Shown piece by piece: positions 270 to 6,102 of a stretch of 64,000 nucleotides of DNA. Each line of letters begins with the position of its first letter. The first letter of the stretch is position 1. Source of the DNA: a virus; IMG/VR virus record IMGVR_UViG_3300032241_000649, positions 24,723 through 88,722 of that record; one strand, given 5' to 3'. The position numbers were made by a program, and so were the translations under genes. The notes under the pieces were generated by a model. It made no database searches, was not told the origin of the DNA, and saw only the letters and a list, made by a program, of their open reading frames with translations.

Positions 270-293
270 CCAACACAAACAAACGGGGGGCAT

Positions 294-593: not shown

Positions 594-759
594 ATGTTAG
601 GCTGGCTAAGCCAACCGCGAGCATACTTCATGTACACCTAGACCCTAGTACCCAATTAAACCAGCCACAGAGGAACAGTTCTGTGCGACGTAGGTTGAGG
701 CAACAGTGATGGTAAGCCCTGCAGTCCCTGTAAGCACTGGAGGTAAGCCAGCCTAATAT
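594..759 (+). ncRNA. candidate structured non-coding RNA (family unknown)
   Basis: Intergenic. 14-bp closing stem 594-607/746-759 with one G-U pair. Inner helices 612-616/693-697, 666-672/679-685, 704-708/735-739, 638-641/645-648. Confidence 0.55.
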
Positions 760-777
760 CTAATAAAGGAGAGCAAC

Positions 778-1014
778 ATGTGTCATGAATGTTATGACGA
801 AGAACAACCCGAGTTTTCATTAGAGATGATCCCTGAGGAAGACCGCGAGGATTTTTTAGACTTCACCTGTGAACAGTTTGGCGTAGTAATTAACGCTGCT
901 GTTACTAATGATATCTTGTTTGAACTAATCACTGAATGGCCTGCTGAGAAGCAAGCAATGTTCACGTTAGCTAGCGTTCTTCAAGGAAGAGTCTTTGGAG
1001 ATAACAACGAATAA
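778..1014 (+). CDS. acidic hypothetical protein
   Basis: AAAGGAG RBS; 78 aa; N-terminal CxxC. Confidence 0.7.
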   Translation: MCHECYDEEQPEFSLEMIPEEDREDFLDFTCEQFGVVINAAVTNDILFELITEWPAEKQAMFTLASVLQGRVFGDNNE

Positions 1015-1024
1015 AGGAGAGCAA

Positions 1025-2410
1025 ATGGAGATAGCAATCTTCACCGAATCATATGAGCCCTCTATGGGAGCACATCGCCGTCAGGTATTGATGGCTCCTC
1101 ATGATGGTGGAGTACGTGTCTATTCACGCAAAACTGATGGCACTAAAGGTCATGGTAGCGCGTGGGTTGAGACTGATCTTGAAGAGTTGGTCACTGAGAT
1201 CAACCCTAACGAACAGTTGACACGCACACCAAGTGGTGTGTACGTTACACCCTTAGATGAAAAAGCAATAACAACCAAAGGATATTCCCCAGTGTTGTGC
1301 ACTAAAGCGTGCTCAGCACATGCTAAGGCTGGTCCTAATACAGAAACAAAAACACTCGTGGAAACTATCTACGATGTGTACACACGCATACTAGGAGGAG
1401 ATGACACCTTGGATACATATGTCAAAGACAATCGCTCAGCAACTAGCAGTACTGTCCCGTTGATAGTACAGCCAGTGCATGAGCTTCCAACACAAACAAC
1501 CGCCCAGCCAGCATTCAACGTATCGTTGGCCACAGTGCCTCCAATGAAGTTGGCTGAACGTTATGTACATCGTAAGGTCTACGGAGTTGAAGACTTCAAA
1601 ACATTCGATACAGCACGTGCTAAAGGCATCAACGTTCTTATCTACGGTCCAACAGGTCCCGGTAAGACTACAGCAGTCGAAGCATGGGCTGCTGAACGCA
1701 ATCTACGCATGGCTACAGTATCTGGTAACGCGTCTATGGAATCCCGCCAGTTATTCGGTGGCTTCATTCCTGATGGCAATGGTGGCTATGGATGGATTGA
1801 CGGTCCTGTCACAGACGTAGTTCGTAATGGTGGTGTTTTACTCCTAGACGAGTTCAACTTCATCAGTCCTAAGATCTACACAACACTCTATCCATTGACT
1901 GACGGTCGTCGTACGATCACATTGCTAGATCACATGGGCGAGACAATCGTTGCTCACCCTGACCTAACAATCTTCGCTACTATGAATCCTGATTACATTG
2001 GTACTACACCGCTTAACTTTGCTATGCGTAACCGCTTTGACATTCAACTGTCATGGGATTACGATGACGCAGTGGAATCAAAGCTAATCTCATCCAAGTC
2101 TTTGCTACTAATCGCTAAGCAATTGCGTGCGGAAGCAGCCAAGGGTCAGTATGAGACTCCAATCTCAACTAACATGCTCATTGAAATTGCTGACTTCATC
2201 AATGATGATGATCTTGGCTATGAGTTTGCTATTGAGAACTTCATCGCTCACTTCAGTGCAGACGAGCAGCCATCTGTTCGTTTGGTATTCCAAACACACG
2301 AACACAATATCAAGCAGGACTTCGGTATGGAAGTTGAAATTGAGCTTGAGAAAGACGCTGACGTGTCACCTGAAGATCTAATGAACAAATGGTTAACCAA
2401 CACAAACTAA
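1025..2410 (+). CDS. MoxR/CbbQ/CobS-like AAA+ ATPase
   Basis: Walker A GPTGPGKT, Walker B LLLDE, ATMNP sensor, AMRNRF arginine finger; start moved to the ATG after AAAGGAG. Confidence 0.9.
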   Translation: MEIAIFTESYEPSMGAHRRQVLMAPHDGGVRVYSRKTDGTKGHGSAWVETDLEELVTEINPNEQLTRTPSGVYVTPLDEKAITTKGYSPVLCTKACSAHAKAGPNTETKTLVETIYDVYTRILGGDDTLDTYVKDNRSATSSTVPLIVQPVHELPTQTTAQPAFNVSLATVPPMKLAERYVHRKVYGVEDFKTFDTARAKGINVLIYGPTGPGKTTAVEAWAAERNLRMATVSGNASMESRQLFGGFIPDGNGGYGWIDGPVTDVVRNGGVLLLDEFNFISPKIYTTLYPLTDGRRTITLLDHMGETIVAHPDLTIFATMNPDYIGTTPLNFAMRNRFDIQLSWDYDDAVESKLISSKSLLLIAKQLRAEAAKGQYETPISTNMLIEIADFINDDDLGYEFAIENFIAHFSADEQPSVRLVFQTHEHNIKQDFGMEVEIELEKDADVSPEDLMNKWLTNTN

Positions 2411-2419
2411 GGGGGTAAC

Positions 2420-4279
2420 ATGTTTCAAGATGAGTTAGATGAATCGTACTACGCACAAGAACGAACTGAGGAGATACAGGTTAGATCTGTTCGACTCAAT
2501 GCGCTCTGTCGTGTATATGAACAAGCAGACCGTGTTCTCACTGGTGATCCAGTGGTAGTAAATGTAGCAAATGACGGCCCCGCACCAGCGTGGTCCGACG
2601 GTGCAAGCATTACTATCAATGCCAGTCAGATAGGTGACATGGACTTAGAGTCATTGACTCAGGTCAATGGCCTGAACTATCATGAGCTTGCCCATCACTT
2701 ATATACTCCAAGACGAGGCACAGACCTTGTCAAATGGGTTATAGAAAATAACTACATGCAGACGTTCAATATGCTGGAGGATCAGCGTATCGAGACTTTG
2801 CTTGTAGCACGCTATCCATCTATTGCTCCATATCTAACAGCTACGTGTGCTCGTTGGCTTGCTGCATCTCCTGATGAAATGCAAAGCAACTATGTACTCA
2901 TGCGTGGTCGTAGGTATCTGCCTGTGGAATTGCGTCAAGCATTCCGTGATATGTTCAACAATAAAGAACTTATCCCAGCAATCATTGACATCGTAGATCA
3001 GTATCGTCTCTTAGCATTCCCCAAAGATTATGCTAAGGCTCGTGAACTAATCAAACGGTTCAATGATGAAGTGCTACCAAACATGCCAAAAATTCCACAA
3101 GGTGGCAATGGATGTACTAATCGTGATCCAGTAACCAAAGGTCGTCCTGAGCCAGGCAAGGCACAGGAACGTGACGCACAGCGTGCTAATGGTATGGGCA
3201 AAGCAGAATCTGAATGGACTCCACGTAAATCTATTGAGGAGCAAACAGAAGATGCGCCCAACACAAACCCAACTGAAAACATAACTCAAGTTATGTCAAC
3301 AGAGGAGCAACTAGAGGCTCGTCAGCAATCACAACAATCTAACACAGCTGGATTAGCTGCTGGTGATGGTCACATTGCTAGTGCTGGTGGATTGCCAAAC
3401 AACATCAATGACATGCTTGATAACGTCATACAGTCTGTACTAGAACGTAAAGATGTACAGCAGGACGTTAAAATCAAGCAGAAAGTAATCATTGGTGGTG
3501 ATGGCAAGCATGAGGATACATTGCGTACGGGTAAGTTTGACAAAACCCCTGTACCATCTGAAGCCATGGCTAACTTTCGTAAGTTTGCTAAGGAACTAGA
3601 ACGCTTGCGTGATGAGTGTGAGCCAATGTGGCATCGTGAGGAAGCGTCTGGCCGTCTCAATGTACAACGTGCATTGCGTGGCTGTGAAATTGACGAAGCC
3701 TTTGACCGCTGGGATGAAGGTAACGATGGTGCTGATATCGAAGCGGTAATCATGGTTGATCGGTCAGGCTCTATGAATTCTGGTAAAAATGACATGCACG
3801 CTTCTATCGCTAGCTGGACTATCAAACGTGCACTAGAAAGCATCGGCGCCCCGGTGACTGTGTATGCGTTTGATGACCAAGCTGAACTAGCCTATGCTCG
3901 TACTGAACTGGCTAGCAAGACTCAATACAAATTCATCTATGGTAATGGTGGTACAAATCCGTACTCTACATTGCTAGCAGCTGAGCAGTTATTGATGTCC
4001 TCTCGTAAGAAAAATAAGATGCTGTTCATGATTACTGACGGCGCGTTTGATGCCCGCAGGAATGATGAAATTATCGCCCGCATTCAAAAGCGTGGCGTGC
4101 TAACTGCAATGACTCTTATCATGCAGGAAAGTGATCTAGAGTACTACACAGAACGTGGTACAAAACTAGAAGAGTTCCGTCATGGTATGGAAATCTTTGC
4201 TCGTATCAATTCAGCACGTGACTTGGTTCCATTTGCCAAGTCTGTAGTAGCCGGCGCTATCAAGAAGCGTGGGCGTTAA
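2420..4279 (+). CDS. vWA-domain protein (CobT-like) with N-terminal HExxH metallopeptidase-like domain
   Basis: HELAH and LEDQRIE motifs; MIDAS DRSGS, GGT, ITDG; adjacent to the MoxR ATPase. Confidence 0.85.
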   Translation: MFQDELDESYYAQERTEEIQVRSVRLNALCRVYEQADRVLTGDPVVVNVANDGPAPAWSDGASITINASQIGDMDLESLTQVNGLNYHELAHHLYTPRRGTDLVKWVIENNYMQTFNMLEDQRIETLLVARYPSIAPYLTATCARWLAASPDEMQSNYVLMRGRRYLPVELRQAFRDMFNNKELIPAIIDIVDQYRLLAFPKDYAKARELIKRFNDEVLPNMPKIPQGGNGCTNRDPVTKGRPEPGKAQERDAQRANGMGKAESEWTPRKSIEEQTEDAPNTNPTENITQVMSTEEQLEARQQSQQSNTAGLAAGDGHIASAGGLPNNINDMLDNVIQSVLERKDVQQDVKIKQKVIIGGDGKHEDTLRTGKFDKTPVPSEAMANFRKFAKELERLRDECEPMWHREEASGRLNVQRALRGCEIDEAFDRWDEGNDGADIEAVIMVDRSGSMNSGKNDMHASIASWTIKRALESIGAPVTVYAFDDQAELAYARTELASKTQYKFIYGNGGTNPYSTLLAAEQLLMSSRKKNKMLFMITDGAFDARRNDEIIARIQKRGVLTAMTLIMQESDLEYYTERGTKLEEFRHGMEIFARINSARDLVPFAKSVVAGAIKKRGR

Positions 4280-4304
4280 TCCAACACAAACAAAGGAGAG
4301 CAAA

Positions 4305-5874: not shown

Positions 5875-6102
5875 ATGCAACTCAATATAAAGACCAAGGA
5901 GATAAAGAAGCTGGTTAGCGCGTTAGAGCAAGCCGGCTTACAAGTTTCCATAACTAATGGGAAACACCATGTTAAAGTGGTTAACCCAAGAACTAGGAAT
6001 ACTGTGTTCTTCGGGGCTCAGTCTCTAGGAGATCGCAGAACTGGTAAGAATATCCTACGAGATCTAAAGCACGTAGGATTCAACAAGAATATAAAGCTCT
6101 AG
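5875..6102 (+). CDS. HicA-like (dsRBD-fold mRNA interferase) protein
   Basis: KKLVSALEQAGLQV...GKHHVKV...DRRTGKNILRDLKHVGF matches phage HicA-like proteins. Confidence 0.65.
   Translation: MQLNIKTKEIKKLVSALEQAGLQVSITNGKHHVKVVNPRTRNTVFFGAQSLGDRRTGKNILRDLKHVGFNKNIKL

What the first reader, a model, noticed from the sequence alone, without database searches (positions are those of the whole stretch)
594..759. Candidate novel ~166-nt multi-branched ncRNA in the early arm
Seen: this is one of the longest intergenic gaps in a gene-dense window, and it is bracketed by a 14-bp stem (ATGTTAGGCTGGCT / AGCCAGCCTAATAT). One inner domain is closed by CAACC/GGTTG and holds hairpins at 632-651 and 666-685. 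The other is closed by CAGTG/CACTG and holds GG-TAAG-CC and TGCAG-TCC-CTGTA. G-U pairs favour the + strand. TAAGC recurs four times (607, 713, 731, 744). It does not resemble tRNA, tmRNA, SRP, RNase P or a hammerhead by eye. Inference: an early phage RNA acting as a protein sponge, anti-defence decoy, RNA antitoxin for the orphan HicA-like gene, or a cis-regulator of the AAA/vWA operon.
Basis: partly seen in the sequence, partly recalled or inferred. Interest (0 to 1): 0.7.

Follow-up and report, generated by a model that had tools for sequence, protein, structure and literature searches.

The report
New folded RNA in lake phages
The flagged gap holds a real, previously uncatalogued folded RNA of about 166 bases that a whole group of freshwater actinobacterial phages keeps directly in front of one three-gene chaperone-like operon; what it does is untested, most likely it controls that operon.

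Summary
At 594-759 (+) a 14-bp end-to-end stem closes a ~166-nt gene-free stretch. The window alone is weak evidence (folding z = -1.9; similar inverted repeats occur elsewhere in the window). Relatives settle it: 32 distinct copies from lake phage and metagenome contigs keep the stem, extended to 19 pairs, through many two-sided compensatory changes. About 49 G-U cells against about 4 A-C cells put the RNA on the + strand. No Rfam family matches it. Every copy, including those found by a context-blind DNA pattern, lies 17-20 nt before the start of a small acidic protein (MCHEC...), followed by a MoxR-type AAA+ ATPase and a peptidase-like vWA protein.

Its CAACC/GGTTG closure and its 632-651 hairpin are not conserved. 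More distant phages carry a larger, also covarying RNA at the same place. It shares two core motifs with this one and is followed by a terminator-like hairpin.

My best reading (about 0.5) is a cis-acting leader of the operon. The main rival is a stable RNA working with the ATPase-vWA machine. Function is unproven. Another reader in this scan flagged the same stretch.

The parts
594..607 (+). P1, 5' strand of the outer closing helix (14 nt)
   Evidence: Pairs with 746-759. Ten of these 14 pairs show two-sided compensatory changes on 29 distinct sequences and twelve on 32. The 5' strand covaries with the distal copy of AGCCARCC, not with the adjacent one.
608..616 (+). P1 extension, 5' side: AA internal loop (608-609), GCC (610-612), AA (613-614), CC (615-616)
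   Evidence: G610-U744, C611-G743, C612-G742; A741 bulged; C615-G740, C616-G739. C-G to U-A swaps are seen at three of the five pairs. G-U at the first pair in 24 of 29 sequences.
617..626 (+). 5' side of an internal loop, P1c 5' strand (G621 C622 A623) and the conserved UAC (CAUAC motif, 622-626)
   Evidence: Columns 33-35 pair with 148-150. The outer pair shows five standard pair types and 24 of 29 sequences are paired. The equivalent helix of the type II relatives covaries at 3 of 4 pairs.
637..645 (+). Conserved CCUAGACCC motif; the 3' strand of a possible small P2 hairpin ends here
   Evidence: Conserved in alignments A2 and A3. P2 (CUUGA/UCAAG) is clear in some relatives, only 2 bp in the window, and invariant in type II. 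Tentative.
651..657 (+). Possible P3a 5' strand (CCCAAUU)
   Evidence: Can pair with GGUUG-A-GG at 693-700. Other subgroups have CNCAAU/GUUGAG, CUCA/UGAG or GNAG/CUNC at this place. Read by eye, not tested statistically.
666..685 (+). P3b central hairpin: CACAGAG, loop GAACAG, UUCUGUG
   Evidence: MFE folding gives a central hairpin at this place in nearly all of the 29 distinct sequences, with unrelated stem sequences; L014 and L030 are unclear. All four modelled pairs show two-sided changes and 83% of cells are paired (alignment fitted to the model).
693..700 (+). Conserved GGUUGAGG (UGAG motif); possible P3a 3' strand
   Evidence: UGAG is conserved in most subgroups and in type II as GUGAGCG. 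The pairing is tentative.
724..731 (+). Invariant core motif GUCCCUG (724-730) with the P1c 3' strand (U729 G730 U731)
   Evidence: It is the most conserved internal stretch and is shared as CCAGUCCCU with the type II RNA. A P4 hairpin using GUCCC as its 3' strand was no better than shuffled sequence.
732..745 (+). 3' side of the internal loop (conserved GCA, 734-736) and P1 extension 3' strand (GG 739-740, A741 bulge, GGU 742-744, A745)
   Evidence: Pairs listed above. Position 738 changes together with 617: U/C in most sequences, G/U in four.
746..759 (+). P1, 3' strand of the outer closing helix
   Evidence: As for 594-607.
766..780 (+). Shine-Dalgarno (GGAG, 768-771) and start codon of p78 (778-780), outside the structure
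   Evidence: The element's end lies 17-20 nt before the p78 start in all 25 extra loci. No part of the RNA is complementary to the SD (read).
778..1014 (+). p78: acidic 78-aa protein, N-terminus MCHEC, LITEWP motif; always the first gene after the RNA
   Evidence: It matches no Pfam, PHROG or NCBIfam family. 74 homologues were found, named 'hypothetical protein' where a source gives a name.
1025..2410 (+). MoxR-type AAA+ ATPase (AAA_5)
   Evidence: Pfam AAA_5, E = 2.7e-20. Best solved relatives are midasin, CbbQ and NorQ. phrog_249. It is not a true CobS: 16 bits against a cut-off of 558.
2420..4279 (+). vWA protein with an HExxH peptidase-like N-terminal part
   Evidence: VWA_2 at residues 443-541. 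phrog_459 'peptidase' at residues 88-135. HELAH is visible in the translation. PMC7824862 describes the same architecture in jumbo phages.

Best explanation
Positions 594-759 encode a genuine, uncatalogued structured RNA, transcribed on the + strand as part of the long rightward transcript.

Shown:
- A rod-like closing helix of 14 + 3 + 2 pairs, interrupted by two small conserved loops.
- Then an A-rich internal loop and a 3-bp helix.
- Then a multi-helix head. Its central hairpin varies freely in sequence, while the joining stretches (CAUAC, CUAGACC, UGAG, GUCCCUG, GCA) stay fixed.

Inferred:
- It acts in cis as the leader of the p78 / MoxR-ATPase / vWA-peptidase operon that always follows it.
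- The folded head would be the sensor, bound by a protein of the operon or host, or by a small ligand.
- Its state would set how much of the operon is made. In the more distant 'type II' phages this would work through read-through of the terminator-like hairpin between the RNA and the ribosome-binding site. In this window's 'type I' form, which has no such hairpin and leaves the SD free, it would work through occlusion, stand-by or stability effects of the 19-bp helix that ends 8 nt before the SD.
- Which signal is sensed is unknown.
For: RNA reality and strand:
- Covariation and controls.
- About 49 G-U cells against about 4 A-C cells.
- Family folding z averages -3.0.
- One copy per genome.

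Cis role:
- Type I members found by a DNA pattern that ignores context (11 true among the 80 viral loci searched, plus L111 among the 27 searched; 20 of 32 metagenome matches), and the two type II members found by the core pattern, are all followed at once by p78, then AAA, then vWA wherever the contig reaches that far. Spacing to the p78 start is 17-20 nt in type I.
- The upstream neighbour varies: p98 is adjacent in some loci and about 3 kb away in others.
- In the window the helix starts 3 nt after the upstream stop codon, and no promoter-like or terminator-like site lies nearby. It must therefore be co-transcribed.
- Type II relatives place a covarying GC-rich hairpin with a short U run between the RNA and the RBS, with no room for a promoter after it.
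- Conserved junction nucleotides with freely varying helices are the pattern of binding pockets.

Lead only: earlier notes of this scan report conserved terminator-bearing leaders before the unrelated MoxR-vWA operons of jumbo coliphages.
Against: - A closing helix of 19 pairs is far longer and more stable than the switching P1 of known riboswitches.
- No alternative pairing with the SD or with the type II hairpin could be found.
- The window's form has no terminator.
- The interior beyond the central hairpin is not solved, and the P4 test failed.
- No expression data could be obtained.
- Tight spacing to the next gene is also expected from mere genome compaction.
- Kinship of type I and type II rests on two shared 9-10-nt motifs and the same topology. 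An nhmmer profile of type I does not find type II.
Confidence: 0.5

Rival explanations
1. It is a stable, stand-alone non-coding RNA. It would be cut out of the polycistronic transcript in type I, or ended by its own terminator in type II. It would work in trans, for instance as a scaffold, cofactor or substrate mimic of the MoxR ATPase / vWA-peptidase machine encoded next to it, or as a decoy against a host RNA-directed defence.
For: - A long helix joining the 5' and 3' ends, with conserved internal loops and sequence conserved beyond what pairing needs, is typical of stable protein-bound RNAs such as Y RNA, phi29 pRNA and 6S (own knowledge).
- The type II form is followed directly by a terminator-like hairpin, the layout of an sRNA gene.
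- The SD is not sequestered.
- The strict linkage with the ATPase-vWA genes fits a dedicated partner as well as it fits a leader.
- Lead only: earlier notes say a related phage ATPase is needed against a HEPN (RNase) defence.
Against: - No promoter of its own in the window: 3 nt after a stop codon.
- No RNA-binding domain was recognised in p78, in the ATPase N-domain (best Z 5.6) or in the vWA N-part.
- p78 is strongly acidic.
- No Ro/TROVE protein in the phage.
- No expression data.
Confidence: 0.28
2. It is mainly an RNA-processing or stability element. The 19-bp helix would be a double-strand RNase (RNase III type) site, or a protective structure, that uncouples the upstream and downstream messages, as the intergenic RNase III sites of phage T7 do.
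For: It is an intergenic, co-transcribed, long irregular helix with small internal loops. Its position between cistrons of a long operon fits.
Against: A processing site needs no conserved multi-helix head with invariant junction motifs. The element is unique in the genome, whereas such sites usually recur. Type II keeps the head while its outer helix sequence varies freely.
Confidence: 0.12
3. It is a DNA-level element: an operator palindrome (GGTTGGCT-A-AGCCAACC) with a distal half-site, a recombination site or a cruciform.
For: In many relatives the 5' end reads as a near-perfect 8+8 palindrome, and the 3' strand repeats its second half.
Against: The 5' arm covaries with the distal copy 140 nt away, not with the adjacent one. 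In the window, L010, L006 and L007 the adjacent copy is left uncompensated. About 49 G-U against about 4 A-C cells is a one-strand signature. The inner helices covary too.
Confidence: 0.03

Closest known systems
Structured 5' leaders with a ligand- or protein-binding domain (riboswitches, ribosomal-protein and T4 gene 32-type leaders, attenuators)
   Same: It is co-oriented with, and directly upstream of, a fixed operon. It has a multi-helix junction with invariant joining nucleotides and freely covarying helices. In type II relatives a terminator-like hairpin follows the domain.
   Different: No Rfam riboswitch or leader family matches. The closing helix has 19 pairs. No anti-terminator or anti-SD alternative is visible. 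No ligand or binding protein is known.
Cis-acting processive antitermination RNAs (HK022 put, Bacillus EAR)
   Same: It is a structured RNA inside a long operon, upstream of a terminator-like hairpin in type II, and would act on the polymerase that made it.
   Different: There is no sequence or model match (Rfam searches above). The comparison with put (two short hairpins) and EAR (a different fold) is from memory, not tested. No functional data exist.
Y RNA / YrlA with Ro60 (a TROVE + vWA protein)
   Same: It has a long helix formed by the 5' and 3' ends with conserved small loops. The 5' end, GGCUGG/GGUUGG, recalls metazoan Y RNA GGCUGGUC (from memory). A vWA protein is encoded nearby.
   Different: There is no Rfam Y_RNA or YrlA hit. 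The phage has no TROVE domain. The vWA protein has a peptidase-like N-terminal part, not a TROVE ring.
phi29 prohead RNA (pRNA)
   Same: It is a phage RNA of similar size whose end-to-end helix recruits an ATPase while a head domain makes other contacts (own knowledge).
   Different: There is no Rfam pRNA hit. The ATPase here is MoxR-type, not a packaging ATPase. No evidence of binding exists.
Conserved leaders of MoxR-vWA/HExxH operons in RaK2-like jumbo coliphages
   Same: The gene pair is the same kind: a MoxR ATPase plus a peptidase-vWA protein. A conserved non-coding structured leader stands in front, with a terminator-type hairpin as in our type II.
   Different: Those leaders are simple hairpins behind strong host-type promoters. 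This one is a 166-nt multi-helix RNA inside a polycistronic arm of actinophages, with an extra small gene (p78) between the RNA and the ATPase. No sequence relation was tested.

Membership tests
Any Rfam 15 family | Covariance-model score at or above the family's gathering threshold | tested here: not met
   There were 0 hits at gathering score in the window, in 15 related loci apart from tRNAs elsewhere, and in the 11 kb upstream at E <= 0.1. Only chance-level hits (E >= 1.2) appeared at E <= 10 on 500-850. Type II gave only a chance hit.
tRNA / tmRNA | Cloverleaf or tmRNA detected by ARAGORN | tested here: not met
   0 genes in the window.
Riboswitch (as a kind) | Conserved aptamer with covarying helices upstream of a consistent gene set | tested here: met
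Riboswitch (as a kind) | Expression platform with mutually exclusive pairings (terminator/anti-terminator or SD/anti-SD) | tested here: inconclusive
   Type II has a terminator-like hairpin but no anti-terminator was found. Type I leaves the SD free. This was inspection only.
Riboswitch (as a kind) | Direct, specific ligand binding | not testable with these tools
   Needs in-line probing, ITC or similar.
Y RNA / YrlA | Ro-binding helix matched by the family model, and a Ro (TROVE) gene in the genome | tested here: not met
   No Rfam hit. PF05731 is absent from the 91%-complete phage record, while the control genomes gave hits.
Retron msr-msd RNA | Flanking inverted repeats plus an adjacent reverse transcriptase | tested here: not met
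   Inverted repeats are present, but RVT_1 is absent from the phage record. The downstream genes are p78, AAA and vWA.
Intrinsic terminator / simple attenuator | GC-rich hairpin followed by a U tract | tested here: not met
   No terminator-like site at 594-777. The helix is followed by UAAUAUCUAAUAAAGG. In type II a separate hairpin with 2-4 U follows the RNA.
   The only HicA-like signal scores 18 bits, below the cut-off, and lies about 5 kb downstream. The RNA co-occurs with p78-AAA-vWA.

The most novel reading that the evidence does not exclude
The RNA is either (a) a dedicated RNA subunit, scaffold or substrate mimic of a phage MoxR-ATPase / vWA-metallopeptidase machine, or (b) the aptamer of a new riboswitch class confined to phages. 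Case (a) would be an RNA-protein remodelling complex with no described counterpart among MoxR systems. In both cases the invariant CAUAC / GUCCCUG / UGAG / GCA junction would form the binding pocket.
Probability: 0.25. Interest if true: 0.85.

Novelty: new variant of a known kind. Interest (0 to 1): 0.6.

Why it matters
If the reading holds, this adds a well-supported new RNA family to the few structured RNAs known from uncultured freshwater actinophages. It has two architectural types, more than 40 natural variants and strong covariation.

It also ties the RNA to one operon, the phage MoxR ATPase / vWA-peptidase pair. That pair is widespread in large phages and its role is still open: virion-assembly chaperone according to PMC7824862, counter-defence according to unverified earlier notes of this scan. 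An RNA that senses something in order to control this operon, or that works with its products, would give an experimental handle on the machine's function.

The alignments and the covariance model made here can be used directly to design compensatory mutants and probing constructs.

Tried and rejected
- Rfam at gathering and permissive thresholds on the window, 15 relatives, the 11 kb upstream, a type II locus and the Gordonia phage locus: nothing.
- ARAGORN: nothing.
- Cultured-phage collection by DNA, near and distant modes: no match.
- Prokaryote genome collection by DNA pattern: 6 matches, none recognised by the model, so chance.
- nhmmer profile of type I against type II loci: no hit.
- RNAalifold on whole alignments finds only the closing helix, because the interior is out of register.
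- MAFFT plus RNAalifold on the central arm alone failed to align it.
- A P4 hairpin using GUCCC as its 3' strand is no better than shuffled sequence: 4.12 against 3.95 pairs.
- The central arm alone is not thermodynamically unusual (mean z -0.8). Its support is positional and covariational.
- A local 5' hairpin or DNA palindrome (GGUUGGC-UAA-GCCAACC) shows no covariation with the adjacent arm.
- A UG/CA pairing (around 126-130 with 154-156 in alignment columns; CAGUG/CACUG in the window) would cross the inner 3-bp helix. It is left open as a possible pseudoknot.
- AlphaFold model of the ATPase N-domain (pLDDT 75), searched with Foldseek and VIA-align: no clear fold and no RNA-binding fold, best Z 5.6.
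- Pfam at E <= 10 on the vWA N-part and the ATPase N-domain: nothing.
- Sequencing runs: no RNA holder was listed.
- Five literature searches found no description of this RNA, and I could not locate the preprint behind the earlier notes on counter-defence.

Full report
WHAT IS THERE. The window is bases 24723-88722 of an 88.7-kb IMG/VR virus record. A WhiB gene in the same rightward arm marks it as an actinophage. The nearest cultured relatives of the ATPase gene are Gordonia phages (Chidiebere, GMA6 and others) and Brevibacterium phage Cantare, at about 47% identity. The flagged stretch fills the 187-nt gap between ORF 294-590 (98 aa, no family) and ORF 778-1014 (78 aa, 'p78'). Next come a MoxR-type AAA+ ATPase at 1025-2410 (Pfam AAA_5; best solved relatives midasin, CbbQ and NorQ; not a true CobS) and a vWA protein at 2420-4279 with an HExxH, peptidase-like N-terminal part. 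This 'MoxR plus metallopeptidase-vWA' pair was described in jumbo phages and proposed there to be a virion-assembly chaperone (PMC7824862).

CHECK OF THE OBSERVATION. The 14-bp stem 594-607/746-759 is present, with one G-U pair. On its own the window is unconvincing: folding z is -1.91 on the + strand and -0.95 on the - strand, and comparable long-range inverted repeats occur several times in the 64 kb. I therefore collected relatives.

- The ATPase protein found 20 viral contigs.
- A DNA pattern built only from the helix motifs found 12 true copies among 107 viral matches. Most of these lie on contigs already found through the ATPase protein; five add new contigs. With one more internal motif added, the pattern found 20 among 32 metagenome matches, all from lake samples.
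- A profile of the ATPase added four more copies on three new contigs.

In total there are 32 distinct sequences.

STRUCTURE THAT IS SHOWN.

1. Closing helix P1. It has 14 pairs, then an AA/A internal loop, then 3 pairs (GCC/GGU), a bulged purine, and 2 pairs (CC/GG). In window coordinates these are 594-607/746-759, 610-612/742-744 and 615-616/739-740.
   - RNAalifold finds exactly this, with 13 of 19 pairs compensated on both sides.
   - Counted on 29 distinct sequences together with the 3-bp helix below, 96.4% of cells pair. Shuffled controls give 82.2 +/- 0.9% and slid partners 20-43%. The covariation score is 0.448 against 0.179 +/- 0.013, reached by 0 of 500 shuffles.
   - New variants even swap the otherwise invariant G-C pairs for A-U.

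2. Strand. About 49 cells are G-U or U-G (24 of them at 610/744). Only about 4 are A-C, the kind that would become G-U on the other strand. The RNA is therefore read from the + strand, the strand of the genes.

3. Inner helix P1c (621-623/729-731). It joins the CA of the conserved CAUAC to the UG of the conserved GUCCCUG. Its variable pair shows five standard pair types, and 24 of 29 sequences are paired. Alone it is marginal; the type II relatives support it (see below).

4. Central hairpin P3b (666-672/679-685). Folding gives a hairpin at this place in nearly all sequences, with unrelated stems: CACAGAG/UUCUGUG, UUAGU/ACUAA, AUAACAA/UUGUUAU, GCAUUG/CAAUGU and others; L014 and L030 are unclear. 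After realignment with model R2, all four modelled pairs show two-sided changes. That alignment leans toward the model.

5. Folding energy. The mean z is -3.0 across the family, and 28 of 29 sequences fall below -1.64.

STRUCTURE THAT IS NOT SETTLED. A small hairpin after CAUAC (P2), a helix closing the central arm (P3a, 651-657/693-700 in the window) and a small hairpin before GUCCCUG (P4) can all be drawn in most sequences. P4 does no better than shuffled sequence, and P2 and P3a were read by eye only. The invariant stretches CAUAC, CUAGACC, UGAG, GUCCCUG and GCA lie between helices. The head therefore looks like a three- or four-way junction with a conserved core. Two of its four TAAGC copies (607, 744) are conserved and face each other across the AA/A loop of P1. 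The near-palindrome at the 5' end (GGUUGGCU-A-AGCCAACC) is not a selected hairpin or a DNA operator, because the 5' arm covaries with the distal copy and not with the adjacent one.

CONTEXT. Every true copy lies 17-20 nt before the ATG of p78, with AAA and vWA behind it wherever the contig reaches that far. The upstream neighbour changes between loci. p78 is a real, conserved, strongly acidic protein (MCHEC..., LITEWP) with no family name. The RNA occurs once per genome and was not found in about 186,000 prokaryote genomes with the pattern used. In the window the helix starts 3 nt after a stop codon and no promoter-like or terminator-like site lies nearby. The RNA is therefore made as part of the long rightward transcript. 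The SD (768-771) lies outside the fold, and nothing in the RNA is complementary to it.

A WIDER FAMILY. Phages whose ATPase is only 52-66% identical give no hit with the model, but they also have 250-400-nt gaps before p78. In about ten of them the gap holds a larger RNA, here called 'type II'. Its structure is strongly supported: 45 pairs, 93.7% paired, 25 pairs with two-sided changes, and a covariation score of 0.511 against 0.178.

Type II shares two motifs with the window's RNA, AUACUUGAU and CCAGUCCCU. These stand in the same order and are bracketed by the same kind of helix, the P1c equivalent, which here covaries at 3 of 4 pairs. I read the two types as homologous cores with different outer parts, but a sequence profile does not link them.

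In type II a covarying GC-rich hairpin with a short U run stands between the RNA and the RBS of p78, and there is no room for a promoter after it.

HOW IT MOST LIKELY WORKS. What is shown is a conserved, single-copy, + strand structured RNA locked to the front of one operon. The rest is inference.

- I favour a cis-acting leader (about 0.5). The reasons are the strict position and spacing, co-transcription, the junction-type conservation expected of a binding pocket, and the type II hairpin that RNA polymerase must read through to reach p78. Earlier notes of this scan report that unrelated MoxR-vWA operons of jumbo coliphages also sit behind conserved terminator-bearing leaders. I did not test those notes, and they only nudged my odds. 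Against this reading stand the very long closing helix, the lack of any visible alternative pairing, and the absence of a terminator in this window's form.
- The main rival (about 0.28) is a stable RNA acting with the ATPase-vWA machine or as a decoy. The end-to-end helix with conserved loops looks like a protein-binding platform, and type II has the layout of an sRNA gene. However, I found no promoter, no RNA-binding domain in the neighbours, no Ro protein and no expression data.
- A pure processing site (about 0.12) does not explain the conserved head.
- A DNA element (about 0.03) is contradicted by the covariation pattern and the G-U asymmetry.
- The HicA-antitoxin idea fails on distance and co-occurrence.

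COMPARISON WITH KNOWN SYSTEMS AND NOVELTY. No Rfam 15 family matches either type, and five literature searches found no description. The RNA works most like a structured operon leader. It resembles Y RNA or phi29 pRNA only in general shape, and the defining features of those families were tested and not met. I rate it a new RNA family of a known general kind.

The scan had already noted this stretch from an overlapping window (e1-6083997, 'module 4'). A companion note (e1-6083993) proposes three further structured modules upstream, which I did not examine.

LIMITS.
- All sequences come from uncultured lake phages.
- The interior fold is only partly solved.
- The pair counts were made on a model-fitted alignment.

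Noticed in passing
L186:2420-2640, L187:2425-2640, L188, L190-L192, L196, L211, L217 (viral contigs; ATPase gene at 3001): A larger 'type II' structured RNA lies before p78 in more distant phages. It has 45 pairs, 25 of them with two-sided changes. It shares the AUACUUGAU and CCAGUCCCU motifs with the window's RNA and is followed by a covarying GC-rich terminator-like hairpin. No Rfam match.
   Followed up: partly
L006:3501-3522, L007:3505-3524, L009:3505-3526, L190:2334-2354, L203:2308-2335, L207:2497-2531, L218:2351-2370 and others; absent from the window: A small recurrent motif: a covarying outer helix, then (G)CGGGAG, a short covarying hairpin, then CGAAAAC closing the helix. It is always on the gene strand, either just upstream of the big RNA or about 2.6 kb further up. 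It gave no Rfam hit at gathering score in L002-L009.
   Followed up: partly
window 270-280, 2397-2407, 4281-4291; starts of the gaps in L186-L192, L197, L211, L214, L217: The 11-mer CCAACACAAAC, flagged by other first readers in this genome, is conserved across distantly related phages. There it stands right after the upstream stop codon and some 20-100 nt before the type II RNA. In the window it stands 23-24 nt before start codons. It may be a promoter-like or translation signal.
   Followed up: no
L010:3509-3540, L011:3507-3540, L013:3544-3575, L017, L021: A covarying AU-rich hairpin (UUUGGUA...UACCAAA in some, UUUGGCA...UGCCAAA in others) lies immediately 5' of the closing helix in loci where the upstream gene is not p98.
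   Followed up: no
L204:2900-2960, L207:2930-2980, L208:2900-2960: In the most distant relatives (ATPase 52-55% identical) the gap before the ATPase gene carries tRNA-like T-arm sequences (GGTTCGAATCC and similar), preceded by a strong hairpin, in place of the RNA described here.
   Followed up: no
L221:1375-2541 (Gordonia phage Chidiebere, MN586022.1 55693-56859): An unannotated stretch of about 1.2 kb lies between divergent gene blocks, upstream of the homologous AAA-ATPase operon of a cultured actinophage. No Rfam hit at E <= 1.
   Followed up: partly
L161:6950-7351 (genome 21949-22350) and L161:7352-8051: A WhiB-family gene lies in the rightward arm, followed by a 700-nt stretch with no ORF of 50 aa or more on the + strand.
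   Followed up: no
window 5875-6102 (+): A 75-aa ORF gives a weak HicA_toxin match (18 bits, below the cut-off, E = 2.5e-4).
   Followed up: partly
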